A DNA stretch of 64,000 nucleotides from Octopus vulgaris (GCA_951406725.2 OX597838.1:19096001-19160000); one strand, 5' to 3'. Counted from the stretch's first letter, positions 430 through 61,572 are shown. A program made the numbers and translations. The notes: generated by a model not told the origin, from the sequence alone.

Positions 430-850
430 TTCTATTTCCTTACTACCCACAAGGGGCTAAACACAGAAAGGACAAACAAGGACAGACAAACGGATTAAGT
501 CGATTACGTCGACCCCAGTGCGTAACTGGTACTTATTTAATCGACCCCGAAAGGATGAAAGGCAAAGTCGACCTCGGCAGAATTTGAACTCAGAATGTAA
601 CGGCAAACGAAATACCTATTTCTTTATTACCCACAAGGGCCTAAACACAGAGGGGACAAACAAGGACAGACATAGGTATTAAGTCGATTACATCAACTCC
701 AGTGCGTAACTGGTACTTATTTAATCGACCCCAAAAGGATGAAAGGCAAAGTCGACCTCGGCAGAATTTGAACTCAGAACGTAACGGCAGACGAAATACC
801 GCTAAGCATTTCGCCAGGCGTGCTAACGATTCTGCCAGCTCACCGCCTTT
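430..850 (-). mobile_element. SINE family B, head-to-tail dimer
   Basis: Head GGCGGTGAGCTGGCAGAATCGTTAGCACGCC, core GCCTTTCATCCTTTCGGGGTCGAT..AAGTACCAG (resembles the Meta-type SINE domain, from memory), tail AAAGAAATAG. The second unit lacks the head. Confidence 0.85.
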
Positions 851-5407: not shown

Positions 5408-5870
5408 ACAAGTAGAAAGGTATATTTTTTCAACACGTAAATACTGATAGAACAGCATATATAGGATACAATCCTTACAGAGCAGAAAAATCTGTCAGCA
5501 ACCAGCCATGAGACTTGAACTCACATCCCTTCAATTTCCGGTCAAAGTGCTTTACCGTTTAAGCTAAACTGCTTTACTGACAAATTTTTCTGCAATTTAG
5601 AATTTATAAACTCGTCTGGAAACACTAGATAGAATAGAATAGAAATTACATCATATATAAACAAACACAAGTTTGTTCTATTCCATCTAGCGGGCTAGTG
5701 CTTTACCATCTAGCTTAAATGGTAAAGCACTTTGACCGGAAATTGAAGGGATGTGAGTTCAAGTCTCGTGGCTGGTTGCTGACAGATTTTTCTACTCTGT
5801 AAGGATTTTATCCCGTATATGCTGTTCTACCAGTACTTATGCACTGAAAAAAATAAAGCTTTCTACTTGT
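5408..5870. mobile_element. Foldback element with tRNA-like sequence in both arms
   Basis: 5408-5566 is the approximate reverse complement of 5711-5870. The arm contains an A-box-like TAGCTTAAATGG and a B-box-like GAGTTCAAGTC. Confidence 0.75.
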
Positions 5871-6169
5871 ACGACAATACATACCTACATATATATACAT
5901 ACATATGTGTGTGTGTGTGCGTGTAGGAAAATAATATGCGCTCACTTGGAATTACAAAGAATGTACTGACAAAAGTGAAATATGACAGAGAGAAAGTCGA
6001 ACAATAAGCCCATTATCAAGTAAGAAAGAAAGAACTAGAAACATTCAAACCTTGTTTGAAAGGCTTGAGCAGACAGGAAAACACAAAAAGTAAGAAACAA
6101 AAAAAAGCAAACACAGACATGGAGACATGGAGCAGTATATAAGAGTCACGTCCTCAACATGGCTAAAAG

Positions 6170-6582
6170 GATTTAGTGACCCTACATAAGGGCTTAGTGA
6201 CCCTACATAGAAGAGCTTAGTGACCCTATATAAGGGCTTAGTGGACCCTACATAGAAGAGCTTAGTGACCCTACATAAGGGCTTAGTGGACCCTACATAG
6301 AAGAGCTTAGTGACCCTACATAAGGGCTTAGTGACCCTATATAGAAGAGCTTAGTGGACCCTACATAAAAGGGGCTTAGTGACCCTACATAAAAAGGCTT
6401 GGTGACCCTACATAAAAGGGCTTGGTGGACCCTACAGAAAAGGGCTTAGTGGACCCTACAGAAAAGGGCTTAGTGGACCCTACAGAAAAGGGCTTAGTGG
6501 ACCCTACAGAAAAGGGCTTAGTGGACCCTACATAAAAGGGCTTAGTGACCCTACATAAAAGGGCTTAGTGGACCCTACATAA
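6170..6582. repeat. Minisatellite, 21-24-bp unit AGGGCTTAGTG(G)ACCCTACATA(A)
   Basis: About 18 directly visible units. Alternating variants at the left, a homogenised variant at the right. Confidence 0.95.
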
Positions 6583-8469: not shown

Positions 8470-9090
8470 TTTCTTATTTCTTTATTGCCCACAAGGGGCT
8501 AAACATAGAGGGGACAAACAAGGACAGACAAACAAAGACAGACATCAACCCCAGTGCGTAACTGGTACTTAATTTATCGACCACTGAAAGGATGAAAAGC
8601 AAAGTCGATCTCGGTGGAATTTGAACTCAGAACGTAAAGACAGACGAAATACCGCTAAGCATTTCGCCCACCGTGCTAACGGCTCTTATTTCTTTATTGC
8701 CCACAAGGGGCTAAACGTAGAGGGGACAAACAAGGACAGACAAAGGGATTAAGTCGATTACATCGACCCCGGTGCATAACTGGTACTTAATTTATCGACC
8801 CTGAAGGGATAAGAGGTAAAGTCGACCTCGGCAAAATTTGAACTCAGAACATAACAGCAGATGAAATACCTATTTCTTTATTACCCACAAGGGGCTAAAC
8901 ACAGAGGGGACAAACAAGGACAGACATAGGTATTAAGTCGATTACATCGACCCCAGTGCGTAACTGGTACTTGATTTATCGACCCCGAAAGGATGAAAGG
9001 TAAAGTCGACCTTGGCAAAATTTGAACTCAGAACATAACAGCAGACGAAATACCGCTAGGCATTTCACCCGGCGTGCTAACGTTTCTGCC
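8470..9090 (-). mobile_element. SINE family B multimer (3 units)
   Basis: Repeated ~185-bp units, one with the junction AAAGAAATAGGTATTTC. Confidence 0.85.
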
Positions 9091-20188: not shown

Positions 20189-20420
20189 CTAAGTGATGGG
20201 TGTTTTGTGTGTGGACAAAATGTGGGTATCAGTTTGGCACAGTATGCCGCCATGTTGGTCTTTGGCATTTTTAAGGAGTATGAAGAACTGTTTCTTGTTA
20301 TACTCTCTCCAGTGCTCGTTTAATCTCTCCACTATACTCTTAGAGGTTGCCCCAATATAAGCTGTATTTCTGTCCTTACAAACTCCTTTCATGCACCTTA
20401 TATTGTACACTATGTCCCAA
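20189..20420 (-). pseudogene. GIY-YIG endonuclease fragment of a Penelope-like retroelement
   Basis: VYNIRC..C....AYIGATSKSIVERLNEH...H, the Penelope-type GIY-YIG signature. Confidence 0.75.
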
Positions 20421-21438
20421 GTTAAACAACTGACTATTTGGTTGGATATTTAACCAACTGACTAATAATAAAGAATGGAATCGAGGCAGTGAGTGTGTCA
20501 ATAATATTGGTACAATTACTTGTGAAGACCTGTTGAGGCAAGTGAGGATCAGAATCGAAATCGATCAATGGAAATTGCAGATGTGTTACCAGTGCCGGTG
20601 GCATGTAAGAGAACCTTCCGTTTCGCGACCGTTGCCAGCACCGCCCCGTTTCGTGTCCGTTGCCAGCCTCGCTTGGCCCTCGTGCCGGTGGCACATAAAA
20701 AGCACCATCCGTTCGTGGCCGTTTGCCAGCTCTGTCTGGCACCTGTGCGGGTGGCACGTAAAAAGCACCCACTACACTCTCGGAGTGGTTGGCGTTAGGA
20801 AGGGCATCCAGCCGTAGAAACACTGCCAGATTTGACTGGGCCTGATGAAGCCTTCTGGCTTCACAGACCCCAGTAGAACCGTCCAACCCATGCTAGCATG
20901 GAAAACGGACGCTAAACGATGATGATGATGACTCTCCCTAGACACAGCAAAATTTGCTTCAACACATGAATTCACATAAAGAATCTCACAAACCAGATAC
21001 AAAAACAAAATAAAGTAAAAATTAAACTAGAACAAGAGAGAAGCAGACAGAACAAGGACAATAGGATTAATATGGCAGATTGGAGGATACTGAGCTAGTA
21101 AATAAAATACACTGGATATTTATCAGAAGAAAACATAGAGAGATAAACTAGCTTTAATAGTGTTTAGAAGTACTTAATAATATAAGACAGCTGGATATAT
21201 ATATATATAACAAAAGACTTGCAGTTTGTAATGATTGTTAGTACTGAAAATAAGTTTAAAATTTAAATGGTTGACAGATCCTAAGTGCATAAGTAGACTG
21301 TACAGACTGTTTCCTAGTAGACTGTTCCCTTTTGTTCTTTCCTCCTATCTATAGTATTTTTTTCACTGTTAATCACTAACATTGTCAAGATGATTTTTTT
21401 TGTATGTGTATAATGAAGTTGAAAAAACAAAATGAAAG

Positions 21439-43576: not shown

Positions 43577-43989
43577 GTCGTCTGGCCTCATATCGGCTGA
43601 TATGAGGCTAAACAAACCGACCTATGATCAGATATGCTTCGTTCGATAACCACACCGTCTTGTTTTCAAACATATTGGATAATATGTCTAAGGAAAATGA
43701 ATGTCTTGTATAAAGACAGCCGGGTCGGCGGAGATTTGGCTAGGTTTTTTTTTATTTTTCTTCAAGCAACTACATGGAGGTTACCTTGTTGGTTTCGTTC
43801 CTTTGACTTAGTTCCACTGTTGTAAGGAAGCAACAAATAATGGGACAAGTAATATTAGTTTCGAAAATAACCCCTCCAAATATATCAAGCATTTCTTCCC
43901 AGAGAAAGAAGAGGGAAAAAATTAGGAAGAAAAATGGAAAAATAATGATACTGCGACAAGACCCACCACCACCACCACAACCAAAAAAT

Positions 43990-44320
43990 AAAATACCTAT
44001 TTCTTTATTAACCCTAAGGGGCTAAACATAGAGGGGACAAACAAGGACAGACATATAGGTATCAAGTCGATTACATCGACCCCCCCCCCCGGTGCGTAAC
44101 TGGTACTTAATTTATCGACCCCGAAAGGATGAAAGGCAAAGTCGACCAAAAAATAAAATACCTATTTCTTTATTAACCCTAAGGGGTTAAACATAGAGGG
44201 GGACAAACAAGGACAGACATAGGTATCAAGTCGATTATATCGACCCCCAGTGCGTAACTGGTACTTAATTTATCGACCTCGAAAGGATGAAAGGCAAAGT
44301 CGACCAAAAAATAAAATACC
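43990..44320 (-). mobile_element. Duplicated truncated SINE family B units
   Basis: Two units each bounded by ACCAAAAAATAAAATACC (three copies of this flank). Confidence 0.8.
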
Positions 44321-47329: not shown

Positions 47330-49385
47330 TGTGCTCAATCCAAAACTCGTGCCCAGCCCGCGGGCCTAACAATAGCGGCCACTAGTACCCGTCCCAACAA
47401 GCTCGCTCACCTCACGTCCATTCGTCGTGAGCACCCCGAGATGGATGACCCCTGATCTTGCTTCCCTCACTTCCTCTCACCCTTCCTGTTCCTATCAAGC
47501 CCCTTGACCGCTGACGTCACAGCCCTTTCCTTCCAGCTCACCTCGTCCCCACACGACCCCCTGATCTCAAAGATCACCTCCTCACTTTACTCCATGTCAA
47601 AATCTGTCACCCCCCCCCCCAGGTGGATGCCTCACATGCTGTGCTTTCCATTGGCAGGTAATCTCGTTCTCTTCCTCTCCTCCACCTTTGTTGTCCAACA
47701 AAGCGACAATCCTGCAAACATCCAAGACGTGACACGACATCCCATCCACAGGAACATTATTTTTGGAGTTAATAGCCATCACTGTTCCTCTGTAATACTG
47801 AGATGTGCAGAGTGCCTTCAGGGACATGACCCAGACTTCATCTCCCACCTCCACAAAGACAGGCTCTCTCTCTTCTGTAGGGTATTCTGATGGTCTAATA
47901 GGATGTTGCCATTCATATCTGAACATCCCTCTGTGTGGCACTGATTCTTCAGTCTGTCCTGATTGGTGCATGTTGTACCAGAACACTGGTTCCAGCAGCG
48001 AGATGTGCCCCTCTCCTCCATGGCCTTGATCATTCCATGATGTATTTCCACAATCCCATTTCCACTTGGCCTATGCACTGCTCTGAAGAAATGGTGTACA
48101 TTCCACTTATCAAGCATCTCTTTCAATGTCTCCAAATGAAATGCAGTGTCATTGTCCATCAGCAATTCATTCACAGGGCCCCCGCTCCAGGAATATCACA
48201 TTCAGGTTATGTGCAATCTCATCTGCAGTACCTATTTCTTTATTACCCACAAGGGGCTAAACACAGAGGGGACAAACAAGGACAGACATAGGTATTAAGT
48301 TGATTACATCGACCCCAGTGAGTAACTGGTACTTAATTTATCGACCCTGAAAGGATGAAAGACAAAGTTGACCTCGGCGAAATTTGAACTCACAACGTAA
48401 CGGCAGACGAAATACCGCTAAGCATTTCACCCGGCATGCTAACGTTTCTGCCAGCTCGCCGCCTTAATCTCATCTGCAGTACCTGTCCTCAATTCCTTCC
48501 AAATGGCTGTCCGACCCAGCCCTCAGTCGACCATCGAGAGATATGTCCCCCGCCGGTAGTGTGTCACATCCTCCACCAATCGTCTCCAGTTGTGCTCTAC
48601 CGAGATGTTTCCCTGCTCATGCACACCCAGAGCAGGGTCAATGGATTGACACCTATCACAATTCCCAATCACCTTTTGGATGCTTGGCCTAGTGGCATCA
48701 GCGTTGACCCTCCTGGCAAGATACAGGGTTCTATCCACACCCATATGATGCCTGGCATGCAGTCTCCTTATCTCTGAGTCACTTAAACGACACATTGCAG
48801 CTATCCCCTGCTTTGAATCACTGATCCTACCCAGCCAGATTCAGATTTCAATGGAGTGCAGCCCAGATTTCAGGGCCAGTTTCACCCCCTTCAGCGCTAT
48901 GTCCAACTCAGCCACATTGATGTGGTTGTAATCATCAGCTTTTCAAAGCCAGGCCACATACTCCACATCAACACTTCCGATTTCCAGTACAACCCCTCTC
49001 GCTATGCTGTCAGCATCACATCATACAGCCCCAATCTCCAATTTGGGCACGAACCAGTTCCCTCTTACTGGGTCTTCTGATCTCGTCCTCTCTAGGATCT
49101 CTTGCATCATCATTACAGTATGTCTAGCCCTTGTATCGCACCAGCTGATACTACCATAATTTCTTGCTCACATGGAGCTGCAAATATACTGTACTCAATC
49201 CAAAACTTGTGCCCAGCCCATGCACCTCACAATAGCAGCTGCTAGTGCCCGTCCCAATAAGCTTGGTTGCTTCATGTCCGTTCCTTGTGAGCACCCAAGG
49301 TGATAGAGGATAACCCCTGGTCTTCCTTCCTTCACTTTCTCTCTCATCTTTTCTGTTCTAGTCAAGCCCCTTCACCGTTGAAATT
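47330..49385 (-). mobile_element. Internally deleted Gypsy-type LTR retrotransposon (integrase relic between two LTR copies)
   Basis: Direct repeats 47330-47515 and 49190-49382. On the minus strand a poly-G PPT (47610-47620) abuts the LTR TG (47609)...CA (47330). Integrase motifs: H..HH.G..RT...C..CQ, D.TH, L.MVD, ELLMDN..AF, P.GNGIVE..H. SINE B is inserted at 48229-48463. Confidence 0.8.
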
Positions 49386-55964: not shown

Positions 55965-56425
55965 CATTTGCCAGCTCTGTCTGGCCCTGTGTCGGTGGCA
56001 CGTAAAAGCACCATCCGTTCGTGTCCGTTGCCAGCATCGCCTGGCCCCGTGCCGGTGACACGTAAAAGCACCGTCCGTTCGTGGCTGTTTGCCAGCTCTG
56101 TCTGGCCCTGTGTCGGTGGCACGTAAAAGCACCATCCGTTCGTGTCCGTTGCCAGCATCGCCTGGCCCCGTGCTGGTGACACGTAAAAGCACCATCCGTT
56201 CGTGGCCGTTTGCCAGCTCTGTCTGGCACCTGTGCAGGTGGCACGTAAAAAACACCCACTACACTCGCGGAGTGGTTGGCGTTAGGAAGGGCATCCAGCC
56301 GTAGAAACACTGCCAGATCTGACTGGGCCTGACGAAGCCTTCCAGCTTCACAGACCCCAGTTGAACCGTCCAACCCATGCTAGCATGGAAAGCGGGCGCT
56401 AAATGATGATGATGATGATGATGAT
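55965..56425 (+). mobile_element. Family C repeat with expanded internal ~60-bp subunits (~120-bp dimer period)
   Basis: CACGTAAAAGCACC(A/G)TCCGTTCGTG..CGTT(T)GCCAGC repeated 4-5 times in two alternating forms. Confidence 0.85.
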
Positions 56426-57213
56426 TATCATTATCATCATTTAACATCCATTTTCTATGTAGGCCTGTGTTGGGCTGGTGTAAAGCCAGGACCTGCACCA
56501 GGCTCCATTCTCTGTTCTGGCATGGTTTCTACAGCTGGATGCCCTTCCTAATGCCAATCACTCCATAGATTGTACAGGATGCTTTTTATATGGCACCAGC
56601 ACTGGTCTCAATTCTGCTGTGGCGAATGTACCTTCTTGAGTCCAACAAGGTGCCATATATCTTGGTCCTTTGTCATATCCTTCCTAAGGCCCATTGTCTT
56701 GAGATTGGCCTTCATTACTTCGTACCATGTCATCTTGGGTCTCTCTCTACCACACGTTCTATCCACTTTAAGTGATTACCATCCAATCATGGCTGTTGCC
56801 AGCCTCGCCTGGCCCCCATGCTGGTGGCATGTAAAAAGCACCATCCAATCGTGGCCGTTTGCCAGCCTCATCTGGCACCTGTGCCGGTGGCACGTAAAAA
56901 GCACCCACTACACTCACGGAGTGGTTGGCGTTAGGAAGGGCATCCAGCTGTAGAAATACTGCCAGATCAGACTGGGCCTGGTGCAGCCTTCTGGCTTCTC
57001 AGACCCCAGTTGAACTGTCCAACCCATGCTAGCATGGAAAGCGGACGCCAAATGATGATGATGATGATGATGATGTATGCAACTTGTGATATCTACACAC
57101 GTTTGTGGGAGGGAAACTGGAGCCTAGTTATTGCCAATCAAAATTTTCCACACCAACACAGCTGCCTCTCATGCACACTAAAGCTTATTCCCCTACATTA
57201 TTTACATTGGACG

Positions 57214-59722
57214 GATATTTGTCCCCATCTTGTTTGTTGTTACCACAACCGTTTCAGCTGATTTGCTCTCCAGCCTTCATCAGGTGTCAGATATTTGTCC
57301 TCATCTTGTTTGTTGTTAACACAACCGTTTCAGCTGATTTGCTCTCCAGCCTTCATCAGGTGTCAGATATTTGTCCTCATCTTGTTTGTTGTTACCACAA
57401 CCGTTTCAGCTGATTTACTCTCCAGCCTTCATCATGTGTTAGATATTTGTCCTCATCTTGTTTGTTGTTACCACAACCGTTTCAGCTGATTTGCTCTCCA
57501 GCCTTCATCAGGTGTCAGATATTTGTCCTCATCTTGTTTGTTGTTACCACAACCGTTTCAGCTGATTTGCTCTCCAGCCTTCATCATGTGTTAGATATCT
57601 GTCCTCATCTTGTTTGTTGTTACCACAACCGTTTCAGCTGATTTGCTCTCCAGCCTTCATCAGGTGTCAGATATCTGTCCTCATCTTGTTTGTTGTTACC
57701 ACAACCGTTTCAGCTGATTTGCTCTCCAGCCTTCATCATGTGTCAGATATCTGTCCTCATCTTGTTTGTTATTACCACAACCGTTTCAGCTGATTTGCTC
57801 TCCAGCCTTCATCATGTGTTAGATATTTGTCCTCATCTTGTTTGTTATTACCACAACCGTTTCAGCTGATTTGCTCTCCAGCCTTCATCATGTGTCAGAT
57901 ATCTGTCCTCATCTTGTTTGTTATTACCACAACCGTTTCAGCTGATTTGCTCTCCAGCCTTCATCATGTGTCAGATATCTGTCCTCATCTTGTTTGTTAT
58001 TACCACAACCGTTTCAGCTGATTTGCTCTCCAGCCTTCATCAGGTGTCAGATATCTGTCCTCATCTTGTTTGTTATTACCACAACCGTTTCAGCTGATTT
58101 GCTCTCCAGCCTTCATCATGTGTCAGATATCTGTCCTCATCTTGTTTGTTATTACCACAACCGTTTCAGCTGATTTGCTCTCCAGCCTTCATCATGTGTC
58201 AGATATCTGTCCTCATCTTGTTTGTTATTACCACAACCGTTTCAGCTGATTTGCTCTCCAGCCTTCATCATGTGTCAGATATCTGTCCTCATCTTGTTTG
58301 TTATTACCACAACCGTTTCAGCTGATTTGCTCTCCAGCCTTCATCATGTGTCAGATATCTGTCCTCATCTTGTTTGTTATTACCACAACCGTTTCAGCTG
58401 ATTTGCTCTCCAGCCTTCATCAGGTGTCAGATATCTGTCCTCATCTTGTTTGTTATTACCACAACCGTTTCAGCTGATTTGCTCTCCAGCCTTCATCATG
58501 TGTCAGATATCTGTCCTCATCTTGTTTGTTATTACCACAACCTGTTTCAGCTGATTTGCTCTCCAGCCTTCATCATGTGTCAGATATCTGTCCTCATCTT
58601 GTTTGTTATTACCACAACCGTTTCAGCTGATTTGCTCTCCAGCCTTCATCATGTGTCAGATATCTGTCCTCATCTTGTTTGTTGTTACCACAACCGTTTC
58701 AGCTGATTTGCTCTCCAGCCTTCATCAGGTGTCAGATATCTGTCCTCATCTTGTTTGTTGTTACCACAACCGTTTCAGCTGATTTGCTCTCCAGCCTTCA
58801 TCATGTGTCAGATATCTGTCCTCATCTTGTTTGTTATTACCACAACCGTTTCAGCTGATTTGCTCTCCAGCCTTCATCAGGTGTCAGATATCTGTCCTCA
58901 TCTTGTTTGTTATTACCACAACCGTTTCAGCTGATTTGCTCTCCAGCCTTCATCATGTGTCAGATATCTGTCCTCATCTTGTTTGTTATTACCACAACCG
59001 TTTCAGCTGATTTGCTCTCCAGCCTTCATCATGTGTCAGATATCTGTCCTCATCTTGTTTGTTGTTACCACAACCGTTTCAGCTGATTTGCTCTCCAGCC
59101 TTCATCATGTGTCAGATATCTGTCCTCATCTTGTTTGTTATTACCACAACCGTTTCAGCTGATTTGCTCTCCAGCCTTCATCATGTGTCAGATATTTGTC
59201 CTCATCTTGTTTGTTGTTACCACAACCGTTTCAGCTGATTTGCTCTCCAGCCTTCATCATGTGTCAGATATCTGTCCTCATCTTGTTTGTTGTTACCACA
59301 ACCGTTTCAGCTGATTTGCTCTCCAGCCTTCATCATGTGTTAGATATCTGTCCTCATCTTGTTTGTTGTTACCACAACCGTTTCAGCTGATTTGCTCTCC
59401 AGCCTTCATCATGTGTCAGATATCTGTCCTCATCTTGTTTGTTATTACCACAACCGTTTCAGCTGATTTGCTCTCCAGCCTTCAACAGGTGTCAGATATT
59501 TGTCCTCATCTTGTTTGTTGTTACCACAACCGTTTCAGCTGATTTGCTCTCCAGCCTTCATCAGGTGTTAGATATTTGTCCTCATCTTGTTTGTTGTTAA
59601 CACAACCGTTTCAGCTGATTTGCTCTCCAGCCTTCATCATGTGTCAGATATTTGTCCTCATCTTGTTTGTTGTTACCACAACCGTTTCAGCTGATTTGCT
59701 CTCCAGCCTTCATCAGGTGTCA
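57214..59722 (-). repeat. Tandem array of 33 x 76-bp units, each a minimal hammerhead-ribozyme-like motif
   Basis: Unit on the minus strand: UGACAC-(C/A)UGAUGA-AGGCUG-GAGAGCAAAU-CAGCU-GAAA-CGG-UU-GUGGU(A)ACAACAAACAAGAUGAGGACAAAUAUC. Period 76 (57214, 57290 ... 59723), with one 1-nt insertion near 58542. Confidence 0.95.
57290..57365 (-). ncRNA. Best-preserved minimal type-I hammerhead ribozyme unit of the array
   Basis: Intact CUGAUGA and GAAA; stem I GACAC/GUGUU; stem II GGCUG/CAGCU; GUU cleavage triplet. Activity untested. Confidence 0.6.
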
Positions 59723-59990
59723 GATATTTGTCTTCATCTTGTTTGTTGTTAACATGTTTTTGCTGGTATACCCTCCAGCCTTCCTCAGGTGTCTTGGGGA
59801 AATTTCGAGCTTGGGTTCTCATTCCTAACATCAAAAACTACCTCAGGAATGAGAACCCAGGTTCAAAATTTCCTCAAGACACCTGATGAAGGCTGGAGGG
59901 TATATCAGCCAAAACGTTGTGTTAACAACAAACAAGATGAGGACAAATATCCATCAAATGTAAATAATGTACATAATTCCTCATCTCTTA
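59723..59990. mobile_element. Inverted (foldback) pair of Penelope-like terminal repeats with degenerate hammerheads
   Basis: 59723-59826 is the approximate reverse complement of 59845-59950. The right arm reads GACAC CTGATGA AGGCTG..CAGCC aAAA CG TT GTGTT, the Penelope minimal HHR layout with G12>A. The right-arm end (ccatcaaatgtaaataatgta) is complementary to 57193-57213 at the far left of the array. Confidence 0.8.
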
Positions 59991-60616
59991 AATATAAAAT
60001 TGTAGGTAACAAGCATATAAAAAGAAAATTTATACATAAATTTGATTGGTTCGCGTTTTAGCCACTGCTGGGTAGTGTGTTTAATTTGTTCACTGAGCAC
60101 CACCGCAAATACCCCTTGTTTTTCAAAAATCCCCCCTAAATCATAAAATAAAGGGGGAAAATTTGTCCTTTTTTTAAAATCCTGGCAGCAACACTGTAGC
60201 TGGAAGCAGGATAATAATCTAATTCTACACTTTATCACATTCAAGAATATGAACACGTTTTTAAGTACAGCACACATGGAGTCAAAAAGAAACACGACCA
60301 GGGTCAGTACTGCGTGAATGACAGCGCTCTCTCTCCCTAGCATGCAGCTTCCTATCTCAGACATGTGAGCAAGAGCACAACAGCCAAACACCGTGTTGCT
60401 GGATCTGTGAAATGCACAATTCTGTACAAGGATTTTTGTATTTTTTTCACAAACTAGGGTATGGCTTCTGTCATTAAGCTTAAGGATCATATAATGTACA
60501 AGTATAAAGAAAGAGTTAAAGTAAAAAGGGCTCATTATATTGAATGTTATCGATAATATAAAGTGGAAATAGTGGGTGCTGCAGTTCTGCAGTGCCTATA
60601 CATGAGCCGCCTCTGC

Positions 60617-60930: not shown

Positions 60931-61034
60931 GTGGCTGAGCACGCTCATTTGTTCCGGGTTATGCAGCCCATCGCCGCCCCTCTTCCCTCCACCTTCCTCT
61001 GCTTTACCCCGCCACCACCTTTGTTCCTTTTCTT

Positions 61035-61572
61035 TTTTATTTCTTTATTGCCCACAAGGGGCTAAACATAGAGGGGGACAAACAAGGACAGACAAGGAGA
61101 TGAAGTCGATTACATCAATCCCAGTGTGTAACTGGTACTTAATTTATCGACCCCCGAAAGGATGAAAAGCAAAGTCGACCTCGGTGGAATTTGAACTCAG
61201 AACGTAACAGCAGACAGAGTACCTATTTCTTTATTACCCACAAGGGGCTAAACACAGAGGGGACAAATGGATTAAGTTGATGACATCGACTCCAGTGCGT
61301 AACCGGTACTTAATTTATCGACCCCGAAAGGATGAAAGGCAAAGTTGACCTCGGCAGAATTTGAACTCAGAATGTAGTGGCAGACAGATACCTATTTCTT
61401 TACTACCCACAAGGGGCTAAACAAAGAGAGGACAAACAAGGACAGACAAATGGATTAACTGGTACTTAGTTAATCAACCCCGAAAGGATGAAAGGCAAAG
61501 TTGACCTCGGTGGAATTTGAACTCAGAACGTAATGGCCTGGTGTGCTAACATTTCTGCCAGCTCACCACCTT
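61035..61572 (-). mobile_element. SINE family B trimer
   Basis: Three units joined at AAAGAAATAGGTA; the head is present only on the first unit. Confidence 0.85.

What the first reader, a model, noticed from the sequence alone, without database searches (positions are those of the whole stretch)
57190..59990. The array is one amplified arm of a foldback Penelope-type terminal-repeat pair
Seen: 59723-59826 and 59845-59950 form a ~100-bp-arm palindrome. The distal end of the right arm (ccatcaaatgtaaataatgta) is complementary to 57193-57213 on the far side of the array, so the 2.5-kb expansion occurred inside the left arm. The array units share a stem-II loop (GAGAGCAAAU) that differs from both parental arms (GAGGGUAUAU/C) while the stem is retained. 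Inference: this captures a ribozyme satellite being born from an inverted pLTR structure. Alternatively, the multimer was copied from a circular 76-nt RNA during Penelope reverse transcription. A read-through transcript would also form dsRNA between the right arm and any unit.
Basis: partly seen in the sequence, partly recalled or inferred. Interest (0 to 1): 0.7.

Follow-up and report, generated by a model that had tools for sequence, protein, structure and literature searches.

The report
Decaying ribozyme minisatellite inside transposon foldback
In what looks like octopus DNA, a 76-base piece of a jumping-gene end carrying a self-cutting RNA motif has been copied 33 times inside one arm of a mirror-image repeat and is losing that motif, which is a clear example of an already proposed route from transposon end to satellite DNA rather than a new system.

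Summary
The geometry is real. A head-to-head foldback (arms 59723-59826 and 59845-59951, 89% identical) has 33 units of 76 bp (57214-59722) inserted between the left arm and its last 20 bases. The arms carry a Penelope-type minimal hammerhead, and only the right arm has a ~30-bp tail, as described for Penelope pLTRs. The repeat family occurs in Octopus bimaculoides. A link to a Penelope RT/GIY-YIG gene could not be tested.

The interpretation needs changing. The array shares none of the left arm's private mutations, so its founder was a third pLTR copy that separated early. This is not a satellite caught at birth. Edge units are ancestral-like and central units derived (rho 0.73), all site pairs show four gametes, and a 5-unit block recurs. 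That points to DNA-level unequal exchange or conversion, not one pass round a circular RNA. The unit junction lies 34 nt from the cleavage site. Only 10 of 33 units keep the catalytic core, a C3-to-A allele holds 22 of 33, and all units have lost the helix III palindrome. Both arms lack G12.

Verdict: a pLTR-derived minisatellite, probably decaying neutrally; a known kind with unusually well-preserved parent context.

The parts
59845..59971 (+). Right arm: short pLTR-like copy, 5' end at the palindrome centre
   Evidence: BLAST to the left arm and to unit 33 plus distal end; O. bimaculoides predicted proteins match it
59878..59923 (+). Minimal type I hammerhead of the right arm: 5-bp helix I, CUGAUGA, bulged A, 6-bp helix II, palindromic CG helix III, but GAAA changed to AAAA (G12 lost); nominal cleavage after 59918
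   Evidence: Relaxed descriptor scans against the published consensus
59972..60004 (+). One-sided ~30-bp 'tail' belonging to the repeat family, absent at the left end
   Evidence: O. bimaculoides A0A0L8FV75 (P0001) aligns through 60004; no match at the left end. Right boundary approximate
59827..59844 (.). 18-nt unpaired spacer at the head-to-head junction
59723..59826 (-). Left arm, proximal part; dead hammerhead (G12 lost, 3-nt deletion across the cleavage triplet); not homogenised with the array
   Evidence: not picked up by the relaxed scans
57214..59722 (-). Array of 33 units of 76 bp (one of 77), each a 75-bp pLTR segment starting at helix I plus a junction T
57214..57364 (-). Units 32-33: the only adjacent pair with intact catalytic cores; unit 32 has a 6-bp helix I
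57897..58657 (-). Homogenised centre: units 15-19 and 20-24 repeat the same five-unit haplotype pattern
   Evidence: the 1-nt insertion in unit 16 was set aside for the column comparison
57194..57213 (-). Distal 20 bases of the left-side pLTR, displaced 2.5 kb by the array; left end of the insertion
   Evidence: 18 of 20 match to 59952-59971

Best explanation
(1) A Penelope-like retrotransposon left a short head-to-head inverted pair of pLTR ends with a tail on one side. The anatomy is shown; the Penelope origin is inferred from three hallmarks. (2) At or soon after insertion, the left side gained a second, shorter pLTR copy running from helix I to the 3' end, joined by one extra T. This happened either by a template jump during reverse transcription or by an internal duplication (inferred; the two cannot be told apart). 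(3) The two left-side copies diverged independently. (4) The distal copy then expanded in place by DNA-level unequal exchange, slippage and conversion, most likely using the ~30-bp stretch still shared between copies. New variants spread from the centre outwards (pattern shown, mechanism inferred). (5) The hammerhead is a passenger. It is being lost without detectable selection, so the array most likely does nothing as RNA.
For: The hammerhead fits the published PLE consensus. A strict descriptor gives 10 hits in 64 kb, all in the array, and 0 in each of 20 shuffled windows. Head-to-head inverted pLTRs with a 30-40-bp one-sided tail are the typical PLE layout (PMC3846280 passages; PMC8557442 passages). 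Both O. bimaculoides copies read the arms' loop (RVY), not the array's (RAN), so the array loop is derived. The array shares no derived allele with the left arm. Derived-allele count rises towards the centre (Spearman 0.73, 0 of 5000 permutations). Neighbours are more alike than chance (p 0.003), and all 6 of 6 pairs among four sites show four gametes. A five-unit block recurs; distance to the right arm is 6.3 at the edges and 8.6 in the centre. This matches the centre-homogenised pattern ascribed to unequal crossover and conversion (PMC5411766 passages). C3-to-A is in 22 of 33 units, and C3 mutation abolishes cleavage in a PLE hammerhead (C3G tested; PMC11167929). Helix I is cut to 3 bp in 31 of 33 units.
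Against: No RT/GIY-YIG link was found. A search for longer proteins starting with the arm's open frame gave only one exonised fragment (1 of 2 candidates), and the GIY-YIG remnant at 20192-20449 has no sequence link to the arms. Unit 33 carries all the array-fixed alleles while the left arm carries none; this asymmetry needs an extra assumption under in-place growth and fits a foreign founder equally well. Three changes cluster in loop II (chance 0.06 for 5 changes, 0.47 for 10), and the array alone keeps GAAA, which could reflect a ribozyme-selected subfamily. The extra G in helix III costs only about 1 kcal/mol in a dimer (-0.7 against -1.7), so the 10 intact-core units may still cleave weakly. 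The neutrality test has only 10 events.
Confidence: 0.62

Rival explanations
1. Retrozyme route. A pre-existing dimer released a 76-nt circular RNA, a Penelope RT copied it round and round, and the multimer was inserted in register into the left arm. DNA-level turnover came later.
For: The array shares no derived allele with its host arm and alone keeps GAAA. Rolling-circle copying of hammerhead circles is a published proposal for PLE tandems (PMC4209133). A PLE protein is proposed to nick its own pLTR (PMC11167929). Unit sizes down to 51 bp are reported for non-LTR retrozymes (bioRxiv 2026.07.22.740005).
Against: The junction is 34 nt from the cleavage site, so a circle cannot have created it. 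One template predicts identical units with singleton errors, but 5 of 8 variable columns are shared polymorphisms, recombined and position-graded. The double-hammerhead fold lies about 13 kcal/mol above the MFE for each of 3 unit pairs tested (nearest-neighbour energies omit the core, and no active control was run). Eight of 9 Xenopus retrozyme constructs did not cleave in vitro.
Confidence: 0.14
2. The array is an outpost of a larger satellite family elsewhere in the genome. It entered the homologous left arm by ectopic recombination or re-integration of a DNA circle.
For: There is a sharp boundary between the left arm and unit 1 with no shared derived alleles. A single crossover in columns 66-75 would give exactly this layout (inference).
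Against: Both edges retain ancestral alleles (column 46 in units 2 and 32, column 24 in unit 31) and grade into a derived centre, as expected for long residence in place. A search with the array's 75-residue open frame found no genuine relative among 1.84 billion representatives (1 hit with 0 significant stretches); this is weak evidence for non-coding DNA.
Confidence: 0.12
3. The parent is not a Penelope pLTR but some other hammerhead-bearing SINE or a MITE-like foldback element.
For: No ORF link was shown. Rfam has no hammerhead hit at gathering score in the window, or at E up to 10 in 59560-60050. No target-site duplication was found.
Against: The motif matches the PLE minimal consensus, with the same post-GAAA 'C G U U' as several ORF-linked examples. 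The one-sided tail is described as specific to PLEs. PLE insertions without a TSD are reported. PLEs cover 6.83% of O. vulgaris.
Confidence: 0.09
4. The array is an assembly artefact.
For: Inverted and tandem PLE structures are known to trouble assemblies.
Against: The variants are structured (edge-centre gradient, shared alleles, repeated blocks), and both ends join the pLTR in register.
Confidence: 0.03

Closest known systems
pLTRs of EN+ Penelope-like elements with minimal hammerheads (Cervera & de la Pena 2014, PMC4209133; Arkhipova et al. 2013, PMC3846280; Craig et al. 2021, PMC8557442)
   Same: Minimal type I hammerhead with bulged base and palindromic CG; head-to-head inverted copies; opposite-strand motifs close together (reported at ~100-700 bp); one-sided ~30-bp tail; partial tandem.
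   Different: No ORF between the repeats; both arms have lost G12; one internal 75-bp segment is amplified 33 times.
Metazoan non-LTR retrozymes (Cervera & de la Pena 2020, PMC7229834; Li et al. bioRxiv 10.64898/2026.07.22.740005)
   Same: Tandem repeat of a type I hammerhead-bearing unit related to a PLE pLTR. Li et al. propose this very route: a pLTR amplifying locally into a tandem.
   Different: Unit of 76 bp against 150-450 bp in the 2020 paper (within the 51-972 bp of Li et al.); minimal rather than canonical hammerhead; only 10 of 33 cores intact; helix III not palindromic; no expression or dispersal shown; parent foldback still in place.
Satellite arrays under concerted evolution (Drosophila Rsp, PMC5411766)
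   Same: Homogenised centre, variant edges, multi-unit blocks.
   Different: Only 2.5 kb, interstitial, and derived from a retroelement end.

Membership tests
EN+ Penelope-like element pLTR | Minimal type I hammerhead layout (helix I, CUGANGAH, helix II, GAAAN, palindrome, NUH) | tested here: met
   Layout present in the right arm apart from a single G12 loss; GAAA intact in all 33 units. Met for the family by combining copies; no single copy here is perfect
EN+ Penelope-like element pLTR | Head-to-head inverted pLTR arrangement | tested here: met
   5' ends face the 18-nt spacer; described as the usual orientation
EN+ Penelope-like element pLTR | 30-40-bp tail at one end only | tested here: met
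   59972-60004 is shared with one O. bimaculoides copy and absent at the left end; rests on one outgroup sequence
EN+ Penelope-like element pLTR | Repeat flanks or overlaps an RT plus GIY-YIG ORF somewhere in the genome | not testable with these tools
   No eukaryotic genome collection available; protein searches gave no fused ORF, which is weak evidence; 212 window ORFs of 70 aa or more gave one unlinked GIY-YIG remnant and no RT
EN+ Penelope-like element pLTR | Target-site duplication (optional in PLEs) | tested here: inconclusive
   No shared flank word over 7 nt and none at the boundaries
Active non-LTR retrozyme | Tandem repeat whose unit holds a type I hammerhead | tested here: met
Active non-LTR retrozyme | Complete hammerhead in all repeats (figure-legend definition of Li et al.) | tested here: not met
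   10 of 33 intact cores
Active non-LTR retrozyme | At least two consecutive complete hammerheads (methods definition of Li et al.) | tested here: inconclusive
   One adjacent pair (units 32-33) has intact cores but a non-palindromic helix III; my descriptor was used, not theirs
Active non-LTR retrozyme | Palindromic helix III for dimer cleavage | tested here: not met
   0 of 33 units are palindromic (32 CGG, 1 CAGG); the computed penalty is only about 1 kcal/mol
Active non-LTR retrozyme | Self-cleavage, circular RNA, dispersed copies | not testable with these tools
   Needs RNA data, bench work and the genome; no other copy in the 64-kb window
Rfam hammerhead families | Score at gathering threshold | tested here: not met
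   expected for motifs lacking helix III (own knowledge)

The most novel reading that the evidence does not exclude
The array is the genomic footprint of one of the smallest metazoan retrozymes: a 76-nt unit, essentially just a minimal hammerhead plus linker, with its own loop II and a G.G-mismatch dimer helix. It was copied by Penelope RT into its parent's pLTR, still yields RNA circles from the 10 intact-core units, and sits beside a built-in antisense arm that could silence it. The locus would then show the pLTR-to-retrozyme transition with parent and product side by side.
Probability: 0.1. Interest if true: 0.65.

Novelty: new member of a known kind. Interest (0 to 1): 0.3.

Why it matters
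The idea that Penelope terminal repeats seed hammerhead-bearing tandem repeats by local amplification is in print, but in the parts I read it rests on co-occurrence and phylogeny (bioRxiv 2026.07.22.740005). This locus keeps the parent foldback, both original ends and a readable mutation gradient. It is therefore a convenient single-locus test of DNA-level growth against RNA-circle copying, and it warns that motif-based retrozyme counts include arrays that are decaying. It reveals no new mechanism or function. The paper searches for octopus plus hammerhead or Penelope listed no description of this repeat; repeat libraries such as Repbase and Dfam could not be checked and may well hold it.

Tried and rejected
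Rfam found no hammerhead; its miRNA hits lie below gathering score and reflect the hairpin only. Two scans of bacterial and archaeal genome contigs for stray copies gave 0 matches each. The representative-protein search with the array's open frame gave one repetitive protein with 0 significant stretches and 24-27% identity in its long alignments, rejected as unrelated. A search for full-length relatives of the GIY-YIG remnant gave 0 of 10 candidates. Pfam on 212 ORFs (those wholly inside the array left out) found no RT. No target-site duplication. A back-splicing origin of the junction, using the AG just before helix I, was rejected by inspection because the observed junction does not match the predicted one (no tool call). 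Microhomology slippage was also checked by inspection: the one shared word I saw would give a 65-bp unit, not 76. Monomer MFE folds were uninformative (z about -0.3 to -1.5). Left unchecked: cluster members of the protein hits, viral and metagenome collections, any eukaryotic genome, Lunse et al. (RNA Biol; not held, known only through PMC6765202), and the bioRxiv supplements, which may list comparable short-unit arrays.

Full report
Observation. The inverted pair is real: 59723-59826 against 59845-59951, 88.8% over 107 columns, with an 18-nt spacer. It folds as one hairpin at z -22.7. A 76-bp array of 33 units fills 57214-59722. The next 20 bases of the right arm (59952-59971) match 57194-57213 at 18 of 20; the best chance match in the window is 14 of 20. 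Read on the minus strand, the left side is: left arm, T, unit 1, T... unit 33, last 20 bases. No further copy of the repeat lies in the 64 kb.

What the repeat is. The right arm's open frame found two Octopus bimaculoides predicted proteins: A0A0L8FV75 (1 of 1 candidate, 81% identity, E 1.6e-20) and a piece of a dystrobrevin gene model (1 of 2 candidates). I read both as translated copies of the same repeat, which places the window in or near Octopus (inference). The first aligns to 60004, about 30 bp past the point where the left side ends: a one-sided tail. The motif in the arms fits the published minimal hammerhead consensus of Penelope-like elements (PMC4209133, main text parts 1-2 of 4 and supplement parts 1-2 of 3). 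My strict descriptor hit 10 places in the window, all in the array, and none in 20 shuffles. Rfam gave no hammerhead. Head-to-head inverted pLTRs, partial tandems and a 30-40-bp tail on one side are the described PLE layout (passages of PMC3846280 and PMC8557442; PMC11167929 parts 1-2 of 4). PLEs make up 6.83% of O. vulgaris (PMC13282606 supplement row). The link to an RT/GIY-YIG ORF stayed untested. The window holds a GIY-YIG remnant at 20192-20449 (Pfam E 6.6e-4, below the cutoff) with no sequence tie to the arms, and protein searches found no fused ORF.

Where the unit came from. Over the 75 shared columns the left arm has private changes at columns 10, 28, 33, 39 (with a 3-nt deletion) and 65, and no unit has any of them. 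The array has fixed changes at 22, 26, 33 and an extra G at 40, and near-fixed ones at 24 (32 of 33) and 46 (31 of 33); neither arm has them. Both Octopus copies show the arms' loop, so the array loop is the derived one. Both arms read A at column 34, where all units read G. That site is a CpG in the inferred family state and the window is CpG-depleted (o/e 0.50), so recurrent decay or arm-to-arm conversion can explain the shared A (inference). The founder was thus a third pLTR copy that separated from the left arm before either had accumulated its changes, not the present arm amplified.

How it grew. Five of 8 variable columns within the first 75 are shared polymorphisms. The number of derived alleles rises towards the centre (rho 0.73, 0 of 5000 permutations), neighbours resemble each other (p 0.003), and all 6 pairs among four sites show four gametes. 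The pattern of units 15-19 recurs in 20-24, and distance to the right arm is 6.3 at the edges and 8.6 in the centre. Ancestral alleles survive only near the edges. This is the pattern ascribed to unequal crossover and conversion (PMC5411766 passages). The 'new loop' is then most simply a set of older sweeps; its clustering is unremarkable once all 10 multi-copy changes are counted (0.47; 0.06 if only 5 are counted). A single reverse-transcription pass round one circle predicts identical units with private errors. The novel junction also lies 34 nt from the cleavage site, so a ribozyme-made circle needs the dimer to exist first. An RT-made seed or a foreign founder is still possible. The strongest point for it is that unit 33 is fully array-type while the left arm is untouched.

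Is it a ribozyme? Both arms have lost G12, and the left arm also lacks its cleavage triplet. In the array, 22 of 33 units have C3 changed to A and one has A6 changed to U, leaving 10 intact cores and one adjacent pair (units 32-33). Helix I is 3 bp in 31 of 33 units, and none keeps the palindromic helix III. Five of 10 multi-copy changes fall in the 38 of 76 columns I marked as structured, as neutrality predicts (p 1.0, low power). Against calling it dead: 3-bp helix I and a G.U closing pair occur among published motifs, the extra G costs about 1 kcal/mol in a dimer, and PLE hammerheads may need protein help. The double-hammerhead fold was about 13 kcal/mol above the MFE in 3 of 3 pairs, but with no active control this says little. 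A read-through RNA would mostly pair the right arm with the left arm (68 bases) and partly with one unit (36 bases); transcription is unknown.

Comparison. It works like a TE-derived minisatellite under concerted evolution. Its parent is very probably a Penelope pLTR (three hallmarks met, ORF link untestable). It resembles non-LTR retrozymes (PMC7229834 parts 2-3 of 6; bioRxiv 10.64898/2026.07.22.740005 parts 1-3 of 5), but it fails the all-units-intact and palindrome tests, so I do not file it as an active retrozyme. That preprint already proposes local amplification of a pLTR into a tandem. I also saw passages of PMC6765202, PMC6962438 and PMC13282606. Searches listed no account of this octopus array; repeat databases and bioRxiv supplements were not visible.

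Verdict. Observation confirmed, interpretation partly supported, new member of a known kind, interest 0.3. The live 76-nt retrozyme reading keeps about 0.1 probability.

Noticed in passing
window 20192-20449 (-): GIY-YIG endonuclease remnant (Pfam E 6.6e-4, below cutoff) that looks like the C-terminal domain of a decayed Penelope-like ORF, interrupted by SINE-like insertions; no hammerhead or link to the array family nearby; no full-length relative found.
   Followed up: partly
window 48526-48840 (-): Weak integrase zinc-binding domain match (PF17921, E 3.9e-4), probably an LTR-retrotransposon remnant.
   Followed up: no
window 5500-5573 (-): tRNA-like sequence just above the Rfam gathering score (32.1 bits), possibly a SINE head or pseudogene.
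   Followed up: no
window 6164-6582: 24-bp minisatellite, 18 copies, 88% matches.
   Followed up: no
window 432-800, 8687-9054, 43980-44320, about 61020-61520: An abundant repeat family occurs as 158-184-bp tandem dimers or longer; SINE-like by appearance, name not established.
   Followed up: no
window 55967-56400, 56778-57050; also 11651, 20650, 23045, 39663: A second abundant repeat with internal 60-68-bp tandem units ending in (GAT)n lies just left of the array; internal tandem expansion of repeats is common in this window.
   Followed up: no
protein P0003 (O. bimaculoides dystrobrevin beta isoform X1): A piece of this pLTR family is built into an NCBI gene model, i.e. exonised or mis-annotated.
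   Followed up: no
window 59845-59971 against 59723-59826: The right arm seems closer to the family state than the left arm or the array; its differences are mostly G-to-A at CpG sites, while the left arm has about 7 non-CpG changes (counted by eye). Unexplained: a later insertion or faster decay on the array side.
   Followed up: partly
window 59722 and each unit junction: The extra T at the junction extends helix I by one pair (6 bp in unit 32); probably chance.
   Followed up: partly
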